NCBI GenBank assembly: GCA_964016885.1
Contig: CAXHJY010000525.1
Span: 62,001 to 126,000, forward strand
Direction of reading: 5' to 3'
Length of the DNA: 64,000 nucleotides
Source of the DNA: Eledone cirrhosa
Taxonomy: Eukaryota
This document shows, piece by piece, positions 3,553 to 59,624 of this stretch; position 1 is the stretch's first letter; each line of letters begins with the position of its first letter. The notes beneath the pieces are model-generated. The model was not told the DNA's origin and did not search any database. It saw nothing but the letters and a program-made list of their open reading frames with translations. Made by a program: the position numbers and the translations under genes.

Positions 3553-3762
3553 ATAACGAAGGAAATGTGGTAAGGAACCAGGTGGACCATAATGCACCAA
3601 AGTACTCAATACTTAGGGTAGTAGAGTGGGTAATAGGAACGAGTAGGACCCCGACGGCTGAGCTCAAGCCGTTTCGACGGCTAATTCTGGACAGCTAATT
3701 GAGTCCAGAATTAGCCGTCGAAACGGCTTGAGCTCAGCCGTCGGGGGTCCTACTCGTTCCTA
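3553..3762 (-). mobile_element. Family A fold-back element in (TA)n carrying the 3' half of a hammerhead (other copies about 5385-5565, 8081-8256, 12696-12870, 56165-56258, 58071-58210)
   Basis: Shared tail ...tattgagtactttggtgcgttatggtccacctggttccttaccacatttccttcgtt(ata)n and an inverted 5' end. + strand 3690-3742 reads gacagctaatt..aattagccgtc-GAAA-cggct-tgagctc-agccg-TC. Confidence 0.8.
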
Positions 3763-3771
3763 TATATATAT

Positions 3772-4276
3772 AGGAAAAAACAAAACCTGTCAAAGGGCAA
3801 AGGAGCTCTTAAGAGTCAATGGCCATCCAAAATCACCGGGAGAGATGACCCCTTTAGCCTTAGTCAAGGCAGAATTCTAGGAGAAGGAAAACTCTGATAT
3901 AACACCTGCAACCCTGATGGTATCCAATGATGTTGACTTGTTCTTCTTTTTGGTAAATATCATCTTGGTTAAGAGAGTGGGACTGGCTTTGTGCAGTGCC
4001 TTTGCTCACTATAAAAGCTTCATGGCACAGGCATTGCTTTATATCTGGAGATCTCTCTGCACTTGTCCTCACATGGGCCCAGCACTATGTGTCAATAATT
4101 GTCCTACCATGGGCCTAGCACTATGTGTCAATGATTGTCACAGGTGTAGTGTTTGTACCAGAGGTTTCAAGTCGCTGGCTGGACTAAAAAGTCACACTCG
4201 TTCAGCGCTTCGGTAGGGGTTATCCTACATGGATGTAAAGTAGTGGCCGTACTCGAAAACGAGTTGGCAGCCACCA
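3772..4276 (+). mobile_element. Short non-autonomous RTE-derived element ending in a C2H2 zinc-finger remnant (longer copy 49377-49983; inverted copy 50253-50662)
   Basis: Three near-identical copies. The 3' part encodes CSVCTR(G/V)FKSLAGLKSHTRSA(H), a C-x2-C-x12-H-x4-H motif like RTE C-termini. It ends ...ggcagccacc before an (AT)-rich tail. Confidence 0.7.
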
Positions 4277-4292
4277 TATATATATATATATA

Positions 4293-4510
4293 GAGTAATA
4301 ATAATAAATTTGAAGACTAAAATCCCTGTATGTTTTGTGAAGGGAACGTTTCCACGAACCAAAGTATCGTCTTCCTGTCTTCCTCCGGTTGCAACGTTAT
4401 TTGAAATATTTACTTCTGCGTTTACAGATTGACTTTTTTAGTTTCAAAAGATCCTGTTAAGGGTGAAAGCAGCGATTCTTTGCTTAAACTTTAATGTTAT
4501 TTTAATAAAT
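4293..4510 (-). mobile_element. Family H interspersed element, internally deleted copy (long copy 34900-35480; other deleted copy 57865-58023)
   Basis: All three copies share both ends (ttaagcaaagaatcgctgctttcacccttaac... and ...ttttagtcttcaaatttattattattac) and have different internal deletions. Confidence 0.8.
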
Positions 4511-4597
4511 ATATATAATGATGGGCAGCAAACTTGTGTTCAAGCATTGCCATCGCCTGATAAAATGGTAAAAAATGTGAGACACGAATGTGGCTCT

Positions 4598-54950: not shown

Positions 54951-57208
54951 TAGGGGCAGTAGTGTGAAATCCCTGCAACAACAACAACAACAACAACAAT
55001 GAATTATACATGTACAATAATAATTGTTTCTACTTATGGCACAAGGCCAGCAAATTACCCCAACGCATTACTGGTACTTTATTGTATCAACCCCCGTAAG
55101 GATGAAAGGCAAAGTTAACCTCGGCGGGATTTGAACTCAGAATGGCAAGGGCCGTAACTCTATGCGTTTGGCACAAGGGCAGCAATTACCCAAGTATATT
55201 ACTGGTACTTTATTTTATCGACCCCGTAACAATATGTGCAATAATATACCCCATGTACAAGAATGATTAATAGTTTAGGTGAAAGCCCAGAATTCACAGA
55301 CACGTGTAGTCATACATAGGTGGGACCAATGGCCTTCTTTCAGGGGGGTACCAGGGAACAAGTCCCCCACCCACTTTGTCAAACGTCTATATTTTAATTT
55401 TTGTTTATTTGATATAAAGGTTTCTTATAAAGGCACAAGGCCAGCAATTTTTGTGATGGGGAAAGTCGATTAAATCCACCCCAGTGCATGACTGGTACTT
55501 TATTTTATCGACCCCGTAAGGATGAAAGGCAAAGTTAACCTCGGCGAGATTTGAACTCAGAATATAAAGGGCTGTAACTCTATGCATATTCAATGTGTTC
55601 AAATCATAAGGGGCCAAAGTCACTAGGGTGAATACGATACCAACTATTTTTTCCTTGAGCTATTTTAATTGTAAGGGGCTATTCTGAGTTTCTAACTCAA
55701 TATATATATATATATATGTAGGCAACACGGTAAAAACCTCCCAGTCCCACACTGTAAATGTGGTTGGTGTTAGGAAGGGCATCCAGCTGTAGAAAACCTG
55801 CCAGACAGTCCACGCTGTAATGTGGCCGTGTAGGCAACACGGTAAAAACCTCCCAGCCCCACACTGTAAATGTGGTTGGCGTTAGGAAGGGCATCCAACT
55901 GTAGAAAACCCGCCAGACAGTCCACGCTGTAATGTGGCCGTGTAGGCAACACGGTAAAAACCTCCCAGCCCCACACTGTAAATGTGGTTGGCGTTAGGAA
56001 GGGCATCCAACTGTAGAAAACCTGCCAGACAGTCCTATGCGAGCAAGACAACCACTCTTGCCTCAAGTGGGAAAACTCCCGTCCAAACCCATGCAAGCGT
56101 GGAACACGGACGTTAAACGATGATGATGATGATGATGATGATGATATATATATATATATAGGCACTACTCGTTCCTATTACCCCCTCTACTACCCTAAGT
56201 ATTGAGTACTTTGGTGCGTTATGGTCCACCTGGTTCCTTACCACATTTCCTTCGTTATATATATATATATATATATATATATATATATATAGACATGGCT
56301 TCTACAGGACTAGAACTGCTTCATTCGTATAAAAATCATCAGGAATGATGATTTTTATACGAATGAAATAGTTCTAGTCCTGTAGAAGCCATTTCTATAT
56401 TAAATATTTAAACTCTGCTATGTACTGAGTACCTTAGTTACTGTTGTTACCCCTGATTGAACCCGGGATAAGCATGCATATATATATATATATATATATA
56501 TATATATATATATAATGTGGTCTACATTTCGTGGTAGGGCCTATACCGTAGATCGAACTCAAAGAACTCAATGTAATCTGCTAACGAGTAATCCAGTGAA
56601 ATCAAGAGATAGGTTCTGTGCAACGCTGAGTCAATCTTTTAGCGAGGGAGGTGAGGGTGGAAAGTCGATTATATGGACCCCAGTATTCGACTGGTACATT
56701 ATTTTATCGACCCTGGAAGGGTGAAAGTCAAAGCTAACCCCCGGGGGCATTTCATCTCAGAACGTAAAAGACAATATATAGAGAGAAGCTAATTAGTTCA
56801 ACATCCTTAACGAGAAGTCCAATTCCACACACACTAATTGTATTTAATAATAATTGTTTCTACTTTCGGCACAAGGCCAGCAATTACCCAGTGCATTACT
56901 GGTACTTTATTTTATCGACCGCGTAAGGATGAAACGCAAAGCTAACCTCGGTAAGATTTGAACTCCGAACGTAAAGGGCCGAAACTCTATCCTGCAAAGC
57001 ATGTTGTAATAATAAACAAAATATATCAGTTAATATTCAAATGTGTCTTTTAATGGGTACACACACACACACACACACACACACACACACACACACATAC
57101 ACACATATATATTAATATAGAAGAGCTTCTACAGGACTAGAACTGTTTCGTTCGTGAGAAATCATCAGGAGAGATCATTCGTGAGAAATCATCATTTAAT
57201 CATCAGGC

Positions 57209-57257
57209 GCTTCCTGAAGATTTCTCACGAATGAAACAGTTCTAGTCCTGTAGAAGC
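57209..57257 (+). ncRNA. Type I hammerhead ribozyme (family B); partial inverted copies at 57125-57170 and 56298-56345
   Basis: GCUUC-CUGAAGA-u-UUC-ucac-GAA-u-GAA-ACAG-uucuaguc-CUGU-A/GAAGC. Confidence 0.82.
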
Positions 57258-57671
57258 TCTTCTATATTAAAACATGTATACTCTGCTATGTATTGAGTAC
57301 CTTACTTACTGTGGTTACCTCCGATTCAACCCGGAATAACTTTTATATATATATATATATATACACATATATATAGATGTGTGTGTGTTAAATATTTCCG
57401 TAGAAAAGGTAAAGGAGAAAAGAGTGCTCTATGTATTGTAGAGAGCTTTTTAATTACATAATAAACAACTCAATATAATTATTTCATTACTGAAGGTTTC
57501 AAGAAAGACACATATATATATATATATGTATTTATATATATATATATATATATATATATATATATATATATATATATATATATATAACCGTTTCCTCCCA
57601 CCCCCTTTTCGCTCTATGTCTCTCCACCACCTCCCTACACACCCTTTGAACTCTCTTCCCACACACTTTTC

Positions 57672-57703
57672 ACCTGAAGAAGGGCTTATGCCCGAAACGT
57701 CGT
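57672..57703 (+). ncRNA. Penelope-type minimal hammerhead core (family E; element about 57586-57795; degenerate relatives near 8520-8555 and 23495-23530)
   Basis: CUGAAGA-a-GGGC-uuau-GCCC-GAAA-CG-UC with palindromic ACGU; stem I has only 2 bp here. Confidence 0.7.
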
Positions 57704-59624
57704 TCCCCACCCCCACCTCACTCTCAAGAGCGTGAAATTAATAAACATTCGTTGTACTACCTCTCTGTTTTGTTCCTGTTCAAATTTTCCATTATATATA
57801 TATATATATATATATATATATATATATATATATATATATATATATATATATATATATATTTATTAAAATAACAGATAAAAATTTAAGCAAAGAATCGCTG
57901 CTTTCACCCTTAACGGGGTCTTCTGAAACGGTTATTTGCTCTACGGTTCTTATATATTTGATATATATTTATCCTTATCGAACCCTCTTTGGATTTTAGT
58001 CTTCAAATTTATTATTATTACTATATATATATATATATATATATATATATATATATATATATATATGTATATAACGAAGGAAATGTGGTAAGGAACCAGG
58101 TGGACCATAACGCACCAAAGTACTCAATACTTAGGGTAGTAGAGTGGGTAATAGGAACAAGTAAGACCCCGACGGCTGAGCTCAAGCCGTTTCGACGGCT
58201 AATTCTGGACATATATATATATAACAAATATATATATATAACATAAATATATATAACAAATATATATATATATATATATATATATATATATATATATATA
58301 TATATATATATATATATATATAACATAAATATATATAACAAATATATATATATAACATAAATATATATAAACATAAATATATATAACAAATATATATATA
58401 TAACATAAATATATAAACATAAATATATATATAACAAATACATAAATATATATAACATATATATATATAAACAAATATATATATATATAAACAAATATAT
58501 ATATATATAAACAAATATATATATATAACATATATATATATATATAAACATAAATATATATATATATGTGTATATATATATATAAAACATAAATATATAT
58601 ATATATAACAAATATATATATATAACATATATATGTATGTATGTATGTGTGCGTGTCTTTAATCAGCACACACGTGTGTGTGTGAGTGTGTGTGTGAGTT
58701 ATCGTGTAATATTAAGGGGAAAATTGTGATAAGCGTTCGTACAGTAATAACGACAATAACTGTTTCTACTATTGGCACAAGGCCAGCAATTACCCCAGTG
58801 CATTACTGGTACTTTATTTTATCGACCCCGTAAGGATGAAAGGCAAAGTTAACCTTGGCGGGGATATGAACTCAGAACGTAAAGGGCCACAACTCTATGC
58901 CGCTAAGTATAGTGTCTGACGCTCTACCGATGCTTGTCAAGCGACCGAATATTTCTACTTTTGGCACAAGGCCAGCAATTTCACCCCCCCAGTACATTAC
59001 TGGTACTTTATTTTATCAACCCAGTAAGGATGAACGGCAAAGTTCACCTCGGCGGGGATTTGAACTCAGAACGTAAAGGGCCACAACTCTATGCTGCAAA
59101 GCAAAGCTATAATAATGGTTTCTGATTTAGGCACAAGACTAACAACTTTTGGGGAGGGTAAAGTCGATTAAATCGACCCCAGTACATTACTGGTACTTTA
59201 TTTTATCGACCCCCCCGTAAGGATGAACGGCAAAGTTAACCTCGGCGGGATTTGAACTCACAACGTAAAGGGACGTAGACTGAATAAATAAAGGTTTCCT
59301 TTAATAATACAGATGATTATAATGATGATGTTGATGATGATGACGGTGGTGATGATGATGATGATGATGATGATGATGATGATCGTGGTGATGATGATGT
59401 TGATTGCTGAATGTACTACTGAGATGAATCATAGCAGATAAGGGGGGGGGTAGGGGAGGTCGGTGAGAGAGAGAGAAAGGGGGTAGAGAGGAAAAGGGGA
59501 AAGACGTTTGTGTGTGTGTGTGTTGTATAGCTTGGTGGAGAGGTAGGTGGTGGTGGTGGTGGTGGTATGGAGATGGTGGTGGTGGGTTGGAATGAGTTAA
59601 GCAGAAAATTACCATTAATGATAA

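What the first reader, a model, noticed from the sequence alone, without database searches (positions are those of the whole stretch)
3553..58210. A hidden set of hammerhead-ribozyme, fold-back retroelements living in (TA)n microsatellites
Seen: at least 7-8 sequence-distinct short non-coding families. Each sits beside or within TA runs, most are inverted-repeat structures, and they carry type I hammerhead cores (9172/9565, 12988/13065, 23145, 32287/32510, 43519, 48286, 48621, 57209, 57674). Degenerate or half cores lie at 3720, 8523, 22213, ~22610, ~23500 and 56298. That is roughly one intact-looking core per 6 kb, with no RT ORF attached. Known: Penelope-like element (PLE) pseudo-LTRs and metazoan non-LTR retrozymes carry type I hammerheads, and PLEs often leave inverted 5' ends. 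Inference: a diverse, probably unannotated radiation of non-autonomous ribozyme elements mobilised in trans by a TA-targeting PLE reverse transcriptase.
Basis: partly seen in the sequence, partly recalled or inferred. Interest (0 to 1): 0.9.

Follow-up and report, generated by a model that had tools for sequence, protein, structure and literature searches.

The report
Penelope retrotransposon stubs plus active retrozyme
Eleven of the twelve short hammerhead-ribozyme repeat families in this likely octopus genome window are cut-off tail ends of ordinary protein-coding Penelope-like retrotransposons, but one is a protein-free 310-base repeat with identical copies on several chromosomes whose insertion ends match those of Penelope elements, so it is likely copied by their enzyme, a link long proposed for animal 'retrozymes'.

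Summary
Five hammerhead sites pass a relaxed type I descriptor (0.05 in shuffles); four more are complete but non-canonical; three called intact are broken. The interpretation needs correcting. For 11 of 12 families a longer genomic copy runs from a Penelope-like (PLE) RT and/or GIY-YIG frame into the same ribozyme and tail. Six are Hydra-type, five other PLEs. These are 5'-truncated pseudo-LTR stubs, a phenomenon already described. Only family D (9039-9764) is non-autonomous: a 310-bp unit in arrays of 1 to at least 19 near-identical monomers on several chromosomes, i.e. a young non-LTR retrozyme. All 31 visible D ends fall at two fixed sites 24 nt apart, and 12 of 12 complete inverted loci carry one of each. 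That is the 'tail' signature of PLE reverse transcription, so D is likely inserted by a PLE enzyme. Cleavage, expression and the partner were not tested. The scan noted a similar pattern once before, for a tRNA-bearing repeat in another genome.

The parts
9039..9764 (.). Family D: non-LTR retrozyme insertion. Minus arm 9039-9457 (ends at monomer position 286), plus arm 9455-9764 (one full 310-bp monomer, ends at 310); intact type I cores at 9208(-) and 9571(+)
3556..3763 (.). Family A pLTR stub (Hydra-type), inverted pair; only the 3' half of the ribozyme
5434..5552 (+). Family A stub, diverged
8080..8254 (.). Family A stub, inverted pair
12698..12870 (.). Family A stub; the CTGAGGA at 12800 is made by the inversion junction, not the family core
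56166..56255 (+). Family A tail only
58074..58210 (-). Family A stub, half ribozyme
12886..13170 (.). Family B (subfamily B1) pLTR stub, inverted pair, long tail on the minus arm; core 13071(+) complete with non-canonical stem II, 13049(-) with stem III mismatch
43520..43626 (+). Family B stub, core 43527 complete with non-canonical stem II
48586..48733 (-). Family B (subfamily B3, ORF-linked, Hydra-type) stub with short inverted piece; core 48687(-) passes the strict descriptor
57387..57522 (-). Family B tail, no core
13177..13355 (.). Family C pLTR stub (Hydra-type), inverted inside stem II, no 5' core
56287..56471 (.). Family C stub, inverted pair, degenerate cores
57112..57340 (.). Family C stub, inverted pair; core 57214(+) intact with U·U at the base of stem II
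22946..23302 (.). Family E pLTR stub (young Hydra-type); inversion joined through stem I, intact core 23145(+), long tail on the minus arm
32237..32704 (.). Family F pLTR stub (Hydra-type; intact 733-aa relative at L190), inverted pair, cores 32518(+)/32344(-) with A·C at the base of stem II
22766..22914 (-). Family F tail fragment
21942..22422 (.). Family G pLTR stub (non-Hydra PLE, YVDD, CX4CxxC linker), inverted pair, GAAA changed to AAAA in both arms
48227..48571 (+). Family H pLTR stub (relative of G), core 48290 with stem III deletion
57587..57792 (+). Family I pLTR stub; core 57674 complete but stem I only 2 bp
8433..8631 (+). Family J pLTR stub, degenerate core 8523
23414..23713 (-). 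Family J pLTR stub, degenerate core
22515..22658 (-). Family K pLTR stub (PLE with YIDD RT and CCHH-type GIY-YIG), degenerate core
34899..35478 (.).
4295..4512 (.). Family M stub
57824..58021 (.). Family M stub, inverted pair

Best explanation
Eleven of the twelve families are the 3' ends (pseudo-LTRs, with their type I hammerhead) of protein-coding Penelope-like retrotransposons left as short, often head-to-head stubs in (TA)n runs, and the twelfth (D) is a protein-free 310-bp tandem retrozyme that is likely inserted by the same kind of enzyme. Shown: ORF-to-tail linkage; two fixed 3' ends per family; variable 5' ends; TA targeting; D arrays with the same two-end geometry. Inferred mechanism: the PLE endonuclease cuts both strands in a TA run; each DNA end primes its own cDNA on uncleaved tandem or circular RNA, at two internal start sites just upstream of U/A-rich stretches (short end and long 'tail' end); most cDNAs stop within about 200 nt and are joined head to head, often at microhomology, giving an inverted pair with one short and one long end. 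On D RNA the enzyme would run through several monomers, which fits a circular or multimeric template. Most stubs are likely inert: half or mutated cores, or a long hairpin predicted to bury the ribozyme.
For: ORF links: F, intact 733-aa ORF flanked by inverted F ends (L190); E (L177, L193, L197); M (L196); A (L315, 3' UTR shared with L331 and L317); B3 (L363, L364); C (L237/L205 and L204); G (L035 from the evenly spaced sample, L079, L252); K (L222, L219); I (GIY-YIG frame upstream, L202); J (decayed GIY-YIG, L292, L287); H (inverted RT fragment joined to the pLTR, L096/L200). [quoted passage not shown] Two fixed 3' ends per family in the sample (A +106/+180, F +105/+187, G +195/+249, M +70/+156, C about +55/+125 from the core) and only 4 of 83 matches reaching 200 nt or more upstream. 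D: 40 of 40 scored copies 100% identical over 186 nt; 31 of 31 visible ends in 19 distinct loci at 284-286 or 308-310, 12 of 12 complete inverted loci with one of each, junction positions 6-285. PMC11167929 shows in vitro that a PLE protein cuts and extends both strands, starts at two internal RNA sites that define the tail, and needs no ribozyme cleavage. Compensatory changes in F stems I and II, B stem I, G/H stem II. Forcing the ribozyme fold costs 69-110 kcal/mol in whole inverted D, B1, C, F elements against 4-14 in single arms.
Against: No cleavage, expression or mobilisation was tested. No PLE parent or partner of D was found in the material held, so its enzyme is inferred from geometry alone. 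Links for H, I and J are weak (inverted fragment, single locus, decayed frame), the C and B 3' UTRs are interrupted by other insertions, and only subfamily B3 was linked, not B1 or B2. 5' ends cluster tightly near the ribozyme (A: 11 of 17 at +16 to +51; C: 14 of 15 at -6 to +15), which could mean short dedicated source RNAs for these two families. The Hydra-type ORFs had no Pfam RT or GIY-YIG hit and no PDB match; clades rest on motifs, not a tree. B stem II is not above its permutation control (317 of 1000) and C stem I is marginal (20 of 1000); subfamily relatedness inflates the other counts. In E the inversion extends stem I, and the ribozyme fold is predicted to survive (1.5 kcal/mol).
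Confidence: 0.85

Rival explanations
1. One reading: most families are independent non-autonomous ribozyme elements with their own short source genes, mobilised in trans.
For: Stubs outnumber ORF-bearing copies by more than 20 to 1 and their 5' ends cluster at the ribozyme. D and its 310-320-bp relatives are of this kind, as is a 482-bp array in L061.
Against: 11 of 12 families join PLE frames; junctions differ per copy; no head-to-tail monomer junction was seen in any family except D and its relatives; most A stubs lack the 5' half of the core.
Confidence: 0.1
2. The inverted pairs form by fold-back: one cDNA anneals on itself through a ribozyme stem and copies itself.
For: Junctions lie in or beside stems (A in the stem II loop, C in stem II, E exactly at stem I). 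Arms of one B1 insertion are more alike (0.94) than arms of different insertions (0.91), 15 of 19 loci scored.
Against: In full-length F loci the short-end arm holds the ORF and the other arm holds the tail, so neither is a copy of the other. In D the longer arm is sometimes the 286 arm and sometimes the 310 arm. The own arm was the best match in only 8 of 15 B1 loci.
Confidence: 0.15
3. D is a satellite born from one pLTR that spreads by local unequal crossover and DNA-level events, not through RNA.
For: Long perfect arrays (10 and at least 19 monomers); PMC-listed preprint 10.64898/2026.07.22.740005 offers local amplification as a route.
Against: Dispersed loci on different chromosomes with unrelated flanks, all ending at the same two positions in TA, with a central inversion at a different point each time. 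Local expansion may still lengthen arrays after insertion.
Confidence: 0.07
4. Chance motifs or assembly artefacts in low-complexity DNA.
For: The window is 32.5% GC and full of microsatellites; the bare CTGANGA count is only 28 against 17.7±3.5.
Against: 5 against 0.05 full motifs in the window, 55 against 0-2 in 570 kb of sample; families recur across chromosomes with covarying stems.
Confidence: 0.01

Closest known systems
Hydra clade of Penelope-like elements, including Hydra-1_Obim of Octopus bimaculoides (Craig et al. 2021, PMC8557442)
   Same: C-terminal GIY-YIG, RW[K/R], DKT and CxCX5C motifs, type I hammerhead in the pLTR (often U·U at the base of stem II, as in their File S2), (TA)n targeting, inverted 5'-truncated copy and one-sided tail.
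   Different: That paper lists one octopus family; here at least six sequence-distinct families (A, B, C, E, F, M) with roughly 10-17 loci per 570 kb for A, C, F and M, tails of 50-140 nt rather than 30-40, long microsatellite-rich 3' UTRs, and core variants (U3-A8 in A; U4 changed to A in M). A 15-nt motif of the Hydra-1_oBim ribozyme was in none of the loci held.
Minimal PLE hammerheads (Cervera and De la Peña 2014, PMC4209133)
   Same: Massive numbers of single motifs attributed to truncated PLEs, pairs on opposite strands 100-700 bp apart, short palindromic stem III, U3-A8 variant.
   Different: Different organism; here each family was traced to its ORF. Their motifs cleaved weakly, and only as dimers or multimers; ours are untested.
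Animal non-LTR retrozymes (Cervera and de la Peña 2020, PMC7229834; Li, Clavereau and Pollet 2026 preprint 10.64898/2026.07.22.740005)
   Same: Family D: about 300-bp monomer, low GC, one type I hammerhead per unit, tandem arrays, no ORF, self-paired predicted circle.
   Different: In the parts read, those papers link retrozymes to PLEs by co-occurrence and pLTR homology and leave the mechanism open; D shows strict TA targeting, a central inversion and two fixed ends at nucleotide resolution. Circular RNA and cleavage are not shown for D, and no parent pLTR was found.
Poseidon PAc in vitro system (Frangieh et al. 2024, PMC11167929)
   Same: Both strands cut and extended in AT-rich DNA; two internal RT start sites define the tail; insertion does not need ribozyme cleavage.
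   Different: Different clade; PAc starts in an AC-rich stem-loop not homologous to the target, whereas ends here lie just before U/A-rich stretches that could pair with (TA)n (inference).

Membership tests
PLE pseudo-LTR (families A, B, C, E, F, G, K, M) | Same 3' sequence lies downstream of a PLE RT and/or GIY-YIG frame in longer copies | tested here: met
   for B only subfamily B3
PLE pseudo-LTR (families H, I, J) | Same 3' sequence lies downstream of a PLE frame | tested here: inconclusive
   H joined to an inverted RT fragment and shares its tail with G; I one locus with a GIY-YIG frame upstream; J decayed GIY-YIG in 2 of 29 loci. Supportive but thin.
PLE pseudo-LTR | 5' truncation, inverted 5' copy, tail on one end only | tested here: met
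Hydra clade | RWK-type motif, DKT, CxCX5C linker, C-terminal GIY-YIG without CCHH | tested here: met
   All seen in E, F, M; partly in A, B, C where copies are broken or truncated
Hydra clade | Insertion into (TA)n and canonical hammerhead | tested here: met
   A and M have variant cores
Hydra clade | RT phylogeny places them with reference Hydra elements | not tested
   No reference Hydra protein was available as tool-held sequence; homologues are unnamed or hypothetical
Neptune/Nematis-type PLE (G, H, K) | CX2-5CxxC linker and CCHH-type endonuclease | tested here: inconclusive
   CX4CxxC linker in G and K frames; no tree
Non-LTR retrozyme (family D) | Tandem 170-400-bp units, each with a type I hammerhead, no ORF | tested here: met
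Non-LTR retrozyme (family D) | Expressed as linear and circular monomer RNA | not testable with these tools
   No RNA run was listed
Non-LTR retrozyme (family D) | Self-cleavage as monomer or dimer | not testable with these tools
   Only folding: stem III is the palindrome ACGCGT, which suggests dimer cleavage (inference from PMC4209133)
Non-LTR retrozyme (the other 11 families) | Tandem ORF-free monomers with a fixed head-to-tail junction | tested here: not met
   Upstream sequence leads into 3' UTR and ORF
Type I hammerhead ribozyme | Core nucleotides plus stems I-III | tested here: met
   5 of 12 listed sites by descriptor, 4 near-canonical, 3 broken
Type I hammerhead ribozyme | Covariation in stems across copies | tested here: met
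   F stems I and II, B stem I, G/H stem II exceed 1000 of 1000 permutations; B stem II does not; relatedness not controlled

The most novel reading that the evidence does not exclude
Family D is a currently mobile animal retrozyme whose dispersed arrays are direct products of PLE target-primed reverse transcription on a circular RNA, primed from both ends of a cut (TA)n at two fixed internal sites. It would be a nucleotide-level footprint that PLE enzymes mobilise retrozymes by rolling-circle copying, in a genome with about 280,000 hammerhead motifs, a Hydra-dominated PLE fauna and an intact candidate enzyme.
Probability: 0.6. Interest if true: 0.7.

Novelty: new member of a known kind. Interest (0 to 1): 0.5.

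Why it matters
Which enzyme moves animal retrozymes, and what the PLE hammerhead is for, are open in the papers read (PMC7229834 discussion; preprint 10.64898/2026.07.22.740005 discussion; PMC11167929). D gives exact predicted start sites (286 and 310), and L190 gives an intact Hydra-type ORF, so the question can be tested with an existing in vitro assay. For annotation, some abundant octopod repeats now left as unknown or unclassified SINE may be PLE ends (inference). A crude estimate of 2.8 x 10^5 descriptor-passing hammerheads (55 hits in 57 stretches, weighted by contig class) would exceed the 126,247 reported for axolotl. The stubs themselves are an already described by-product of PLE activity.

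Tried and rejected
Rfam scans: no hit at gathering score; weak hits were microsatellite artefacts. The repeat finder was swamped by TA runs. The first strict descriptor missed most sites because it barred U·U at the base of stem II. A Pfam GIY-YIG search of the genome returned other PLE families, not the Hydra-type ones; links came from flanks. 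Pattern search for family A with a CTGA core: 0 hits; a looser one gave 9 hits, 7 of them point-mutated inverted arms; the real A core is U3-A8. The query was meant as A's upstream region but was mis-oriented and covered the tail; its loci still led to L315. A guessed B upstream pattern gave 0 hits. The 30 F loci and most K and J loci had no ORF within 1.5 kb; F was resolved from longer stretches. Pfam and PDB gave no RT or endonuclease match for the Hydra-type ORFs. Expression: no RNA holder listed; four runs of unrecorded kind, contigs only, hold D, three of them as one 340-nt contig, two of these mapping as a closed loop, which cannot tell a DNA array from an RNA circle. The F rows used a wrong offset and were redone; the arm comparison failed and was redone. 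The genome sample is 57 stretches of 10 kb, over-weighting small chromosomes; family E and young D had no locus in it. No parent PLE of D among held loci; a genome-wide search for diverged D relatives with ORFs was not run. Literature searches; 'hammerhead ribozyme' with 'Octopus bimaculoides' gave 0 papers in this library, which lacks most subscription journals. Dfam and Repbase could not be searched; supplements of the bioRxiv preprint and of the O. vulgaris repeat paper were not seen and may already hold these families.

Full report
Setting. The window lies on contig C552 of a 3.0-Gb animal genome. It is 32.5% GC, packed with TA runs, and holds an intronless Frizzled frame. The only named homologues among the 120 listed for a resident retrotransposon protein come from Argonauta hians, so the host is likely an octopod (inference).

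Observation. A relaxed type I hammerhead descriptor, allowing U·U or a bulge at the base of stem II and a short palindromic stem III, finds 5 sites in the window against 0.05 in 100 shuffles, and 55 in 570 kb of evenly spaced genome sample against 0-2 in 8 shuffles. The six sites called degenerate are degenerate. Mapping against longer genomic copies resolves 26 insertions of 12 families, here A-K and M. In the sample, 88 of 116 outer ends abut TA (background 11.7%), and 34 of 83 locus matches are head-to-head inversions; family B was scored twice, so up to 5 matches are duplicates. Stems covary across subfamilies in F (stem I 476 of 504 cells paired against a permutation mean of 448; stem II 326 of 420 against 267), B stem I (310 of 336 against 253) and G/H stem II (87 of 90 against 80). 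B stem II does not exceed its control and C stem I is marginal. Copies were chosen by core and stem III pattern, and relatedness was not controlled.

What the families are. Following each family upstream led to Penelope-like coding sequence. F: an unbroken 733-aa frame between inverted F ends. E: RT and endonuclease frames followed by a 0.5-kb UTR, with genomic copies 99-100% identical. M: L196, and an endonuclease remnant inside the window at 35147-35459. A: L315, where the true core is UUGACAA, the U3-A8 variant, and is missing from all window copies. B3: two independent loci. C: two loci with the same endonuclease. These six show the Hydra motifs of PMC8557442, fully in E, F and M, partly in the broken A, B and C copies. 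G and K join other PLE frames with a CX4CxxC linker. H, I and J have thinner links. Only 4 of 83 sample matches extend 200 nt or more upstream of the core, each family has two fixed 3' ends, and 5' ends and junctions vary. This is what PMC4209133 describes as single and opposite-strand minimal hammerheads from truncated PLEs, and what PMC8557442 describes as inverted 5'-truncated copies with a one-sided tail; its supplement lists a (TA)n-targeting Hydra family in Octopus bimaculoides.

Family D is different. Its upstream sequence is its own tail: a 310-bp monomer in tandem. All 40 scored of 462 candidates were 100% identical over 186 nt, many spaced 310 bp apart. Arrays run from 1 to at least 19 monomers. 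Of 20 stretches examined, two cover one array. In the 19 distinct loci all 31 visible outer ends lie at monomer position 284-286 or 308-310, next to TA or AT-rich sequence, and all 12 inverted loci with both ends visible have one end of each kind. The inversion point ranges from position 6 to 285, and two loci show no inverted arm. Five of five F loci with a long inverted pair show the same asymmetry. Relatives of 310-320 bp at 70-90% identity keep the same head-to-tail junction, and none held is attached to an ORF. The circularised monomer folds at -67.8 kcal/mol against -47.2±4.8 for 100 base shuffles, with an extended stem I.

Mechanism. PMC11167929 shows that a PLE protein cuts and extends both strands of AT-rich DNA, starts at two internal RNA sites that match the genomic tail, and works with a dead ribozyme. 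All insertions here read through the predicted cleavage site, so the template was uncut or religated (inference). The simplest model is that each end of a cut TA run primes its own cDNA, one at the short site and one at the long site, and the two are joined head to head. Simple fold-back is disfavoured, because in full-length F loci each arm has sequence the other lacks and in D either arm can be the longer; it is not excluded for some stubs. For D, multimer arms fit rolling-circle copying of a circle or copying of a long array transcript; these cannot be told apart here. Whole inverted elements are predicted to form hairpins that bury the ribozyme, at a cost of 69-110 kcal/mol, except E, so most stubs are likely inert.

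Against and open. Nothing was shown to cleave or to be expressed. D's partner is unknown; both Hydra-type and other PLEs here target TA. The tight clustering of A and C 5' ends at the ribozyme could reflect stalling at the structure or short source RNAs; divergence from the single reference copy may also hide upstream homology. Clade names rest on motifs.

Novelty. The stubs are new members of a known kind. D is a new retrozyme, and its ends give more direct evidence for PLE-driven insertion than the co-occurrence and homology arguments in the parts read of PMC7229834 and preprint 10.64898/2026.07.22.740005. An earlier unchecked note of this scan reports a similar pattern for a tRNA-bearing repeat in another genome; nothing was found for this sequence or genome.

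Papers, as seen: PMC8557442 passages, section 11 and supplement part 2 of 59 plus a supplement search; PMC11167929 parts 1-2 of 4; PMC4209133 passages; PMC7229834 passages and discussion; preprint 10.64898/2026.07.22.740005 parts 1 and 3 of 5; PMC13282606 part 1 of 3 and passages, in whose main text 'ribozyme' does not occur. Hammerhead numbering and the LINE and MITE labels under 'noticed' are recalled, not from a call.

Noticed in passing
window 19496-21232 (-): Intronless Frizzled receptor reading frame, 578 aa stop to stop; Pfam Fz and Frizzled domains. PLE stubs G, K, F, E and J lie within 2.5 kb upstream of it.
   Followed up: partly
L061:200-3700: A second retrozyme-like array: about 482-bp unit with an intact type I hammerhead in 7 successive units, ending in TA; the same ribozyme occurs dispersed in L033, L035, L039, L369, L371.
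   Followed up: partly
L062:5784-7400, L318, L323, L324, L345, L071, L356, L369: Older relatives of D (310-320 bp, 70-90% identity) with the same monomer junction; some have a U3-A8 core, others C3-G8.
   Followed up: partly
window 57824-58021, 34899-35064, 4341-4512; L196, L209, L313: Family M keeps CAGAAGA where the core is normally CUGANGA (U4 changed to A) in the copies read, with stems intact; activity unknown.
   Followed up: no
L070-L097, about 500 nt downstream of the GIY-YIG hit: An abundant non-Hydra PLE family with a U3-A8 hammerhead core (TTGATAA) that CUGANGA searches miss.
   Followed up: no
L190:3249-5447: Unbroken 733-aa Hydra-type ORF with no RT or GIY-YIG hit in Pfam or PDB, but 265 homologues, nearly all unnamed.
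   Followed up: partly
window 12680-13400, 22420-23420, 56140-58220: Stubs of different families are stacked in the same TA runs, which are split into successive short tracts; the same is seen in many fetched loci.
   Followed up: partly
window 33200-34377 (+) and 418-990 (-): Fragments of a LINE-type reverse transcriptase (RTE-like, label recalled), unrelated to the stubs.
   Followed up: no
window 38151-38549 (+): C-terminal fragment of another non-LTR retrotransposon (L1/Tx1-like, label recalled); similar frames in L079 and L200.
   Followed up: no
window 50700-55000: About 4.3 kb of short-period G/T-rich tandem repeat with extreme skew.
   Followed up: no
window 2312-3211 and 23750-24510: Tandem arrays of dispersed SINE-like repeats with periods of about 190 and 95 bp.
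   Followed up: no
window 43450-43519 and 39309-39521: A short element with inverted termini directly upstream of the B stub (MITE-like, label recalled), and an imperfect 210-bp palindrome around a TAGA repeat.
   Followed up: no
L364, L182, L244: A further inverted-pair hammerhead family absent from the window, one of several more seen in the sample.
   Followed up: no
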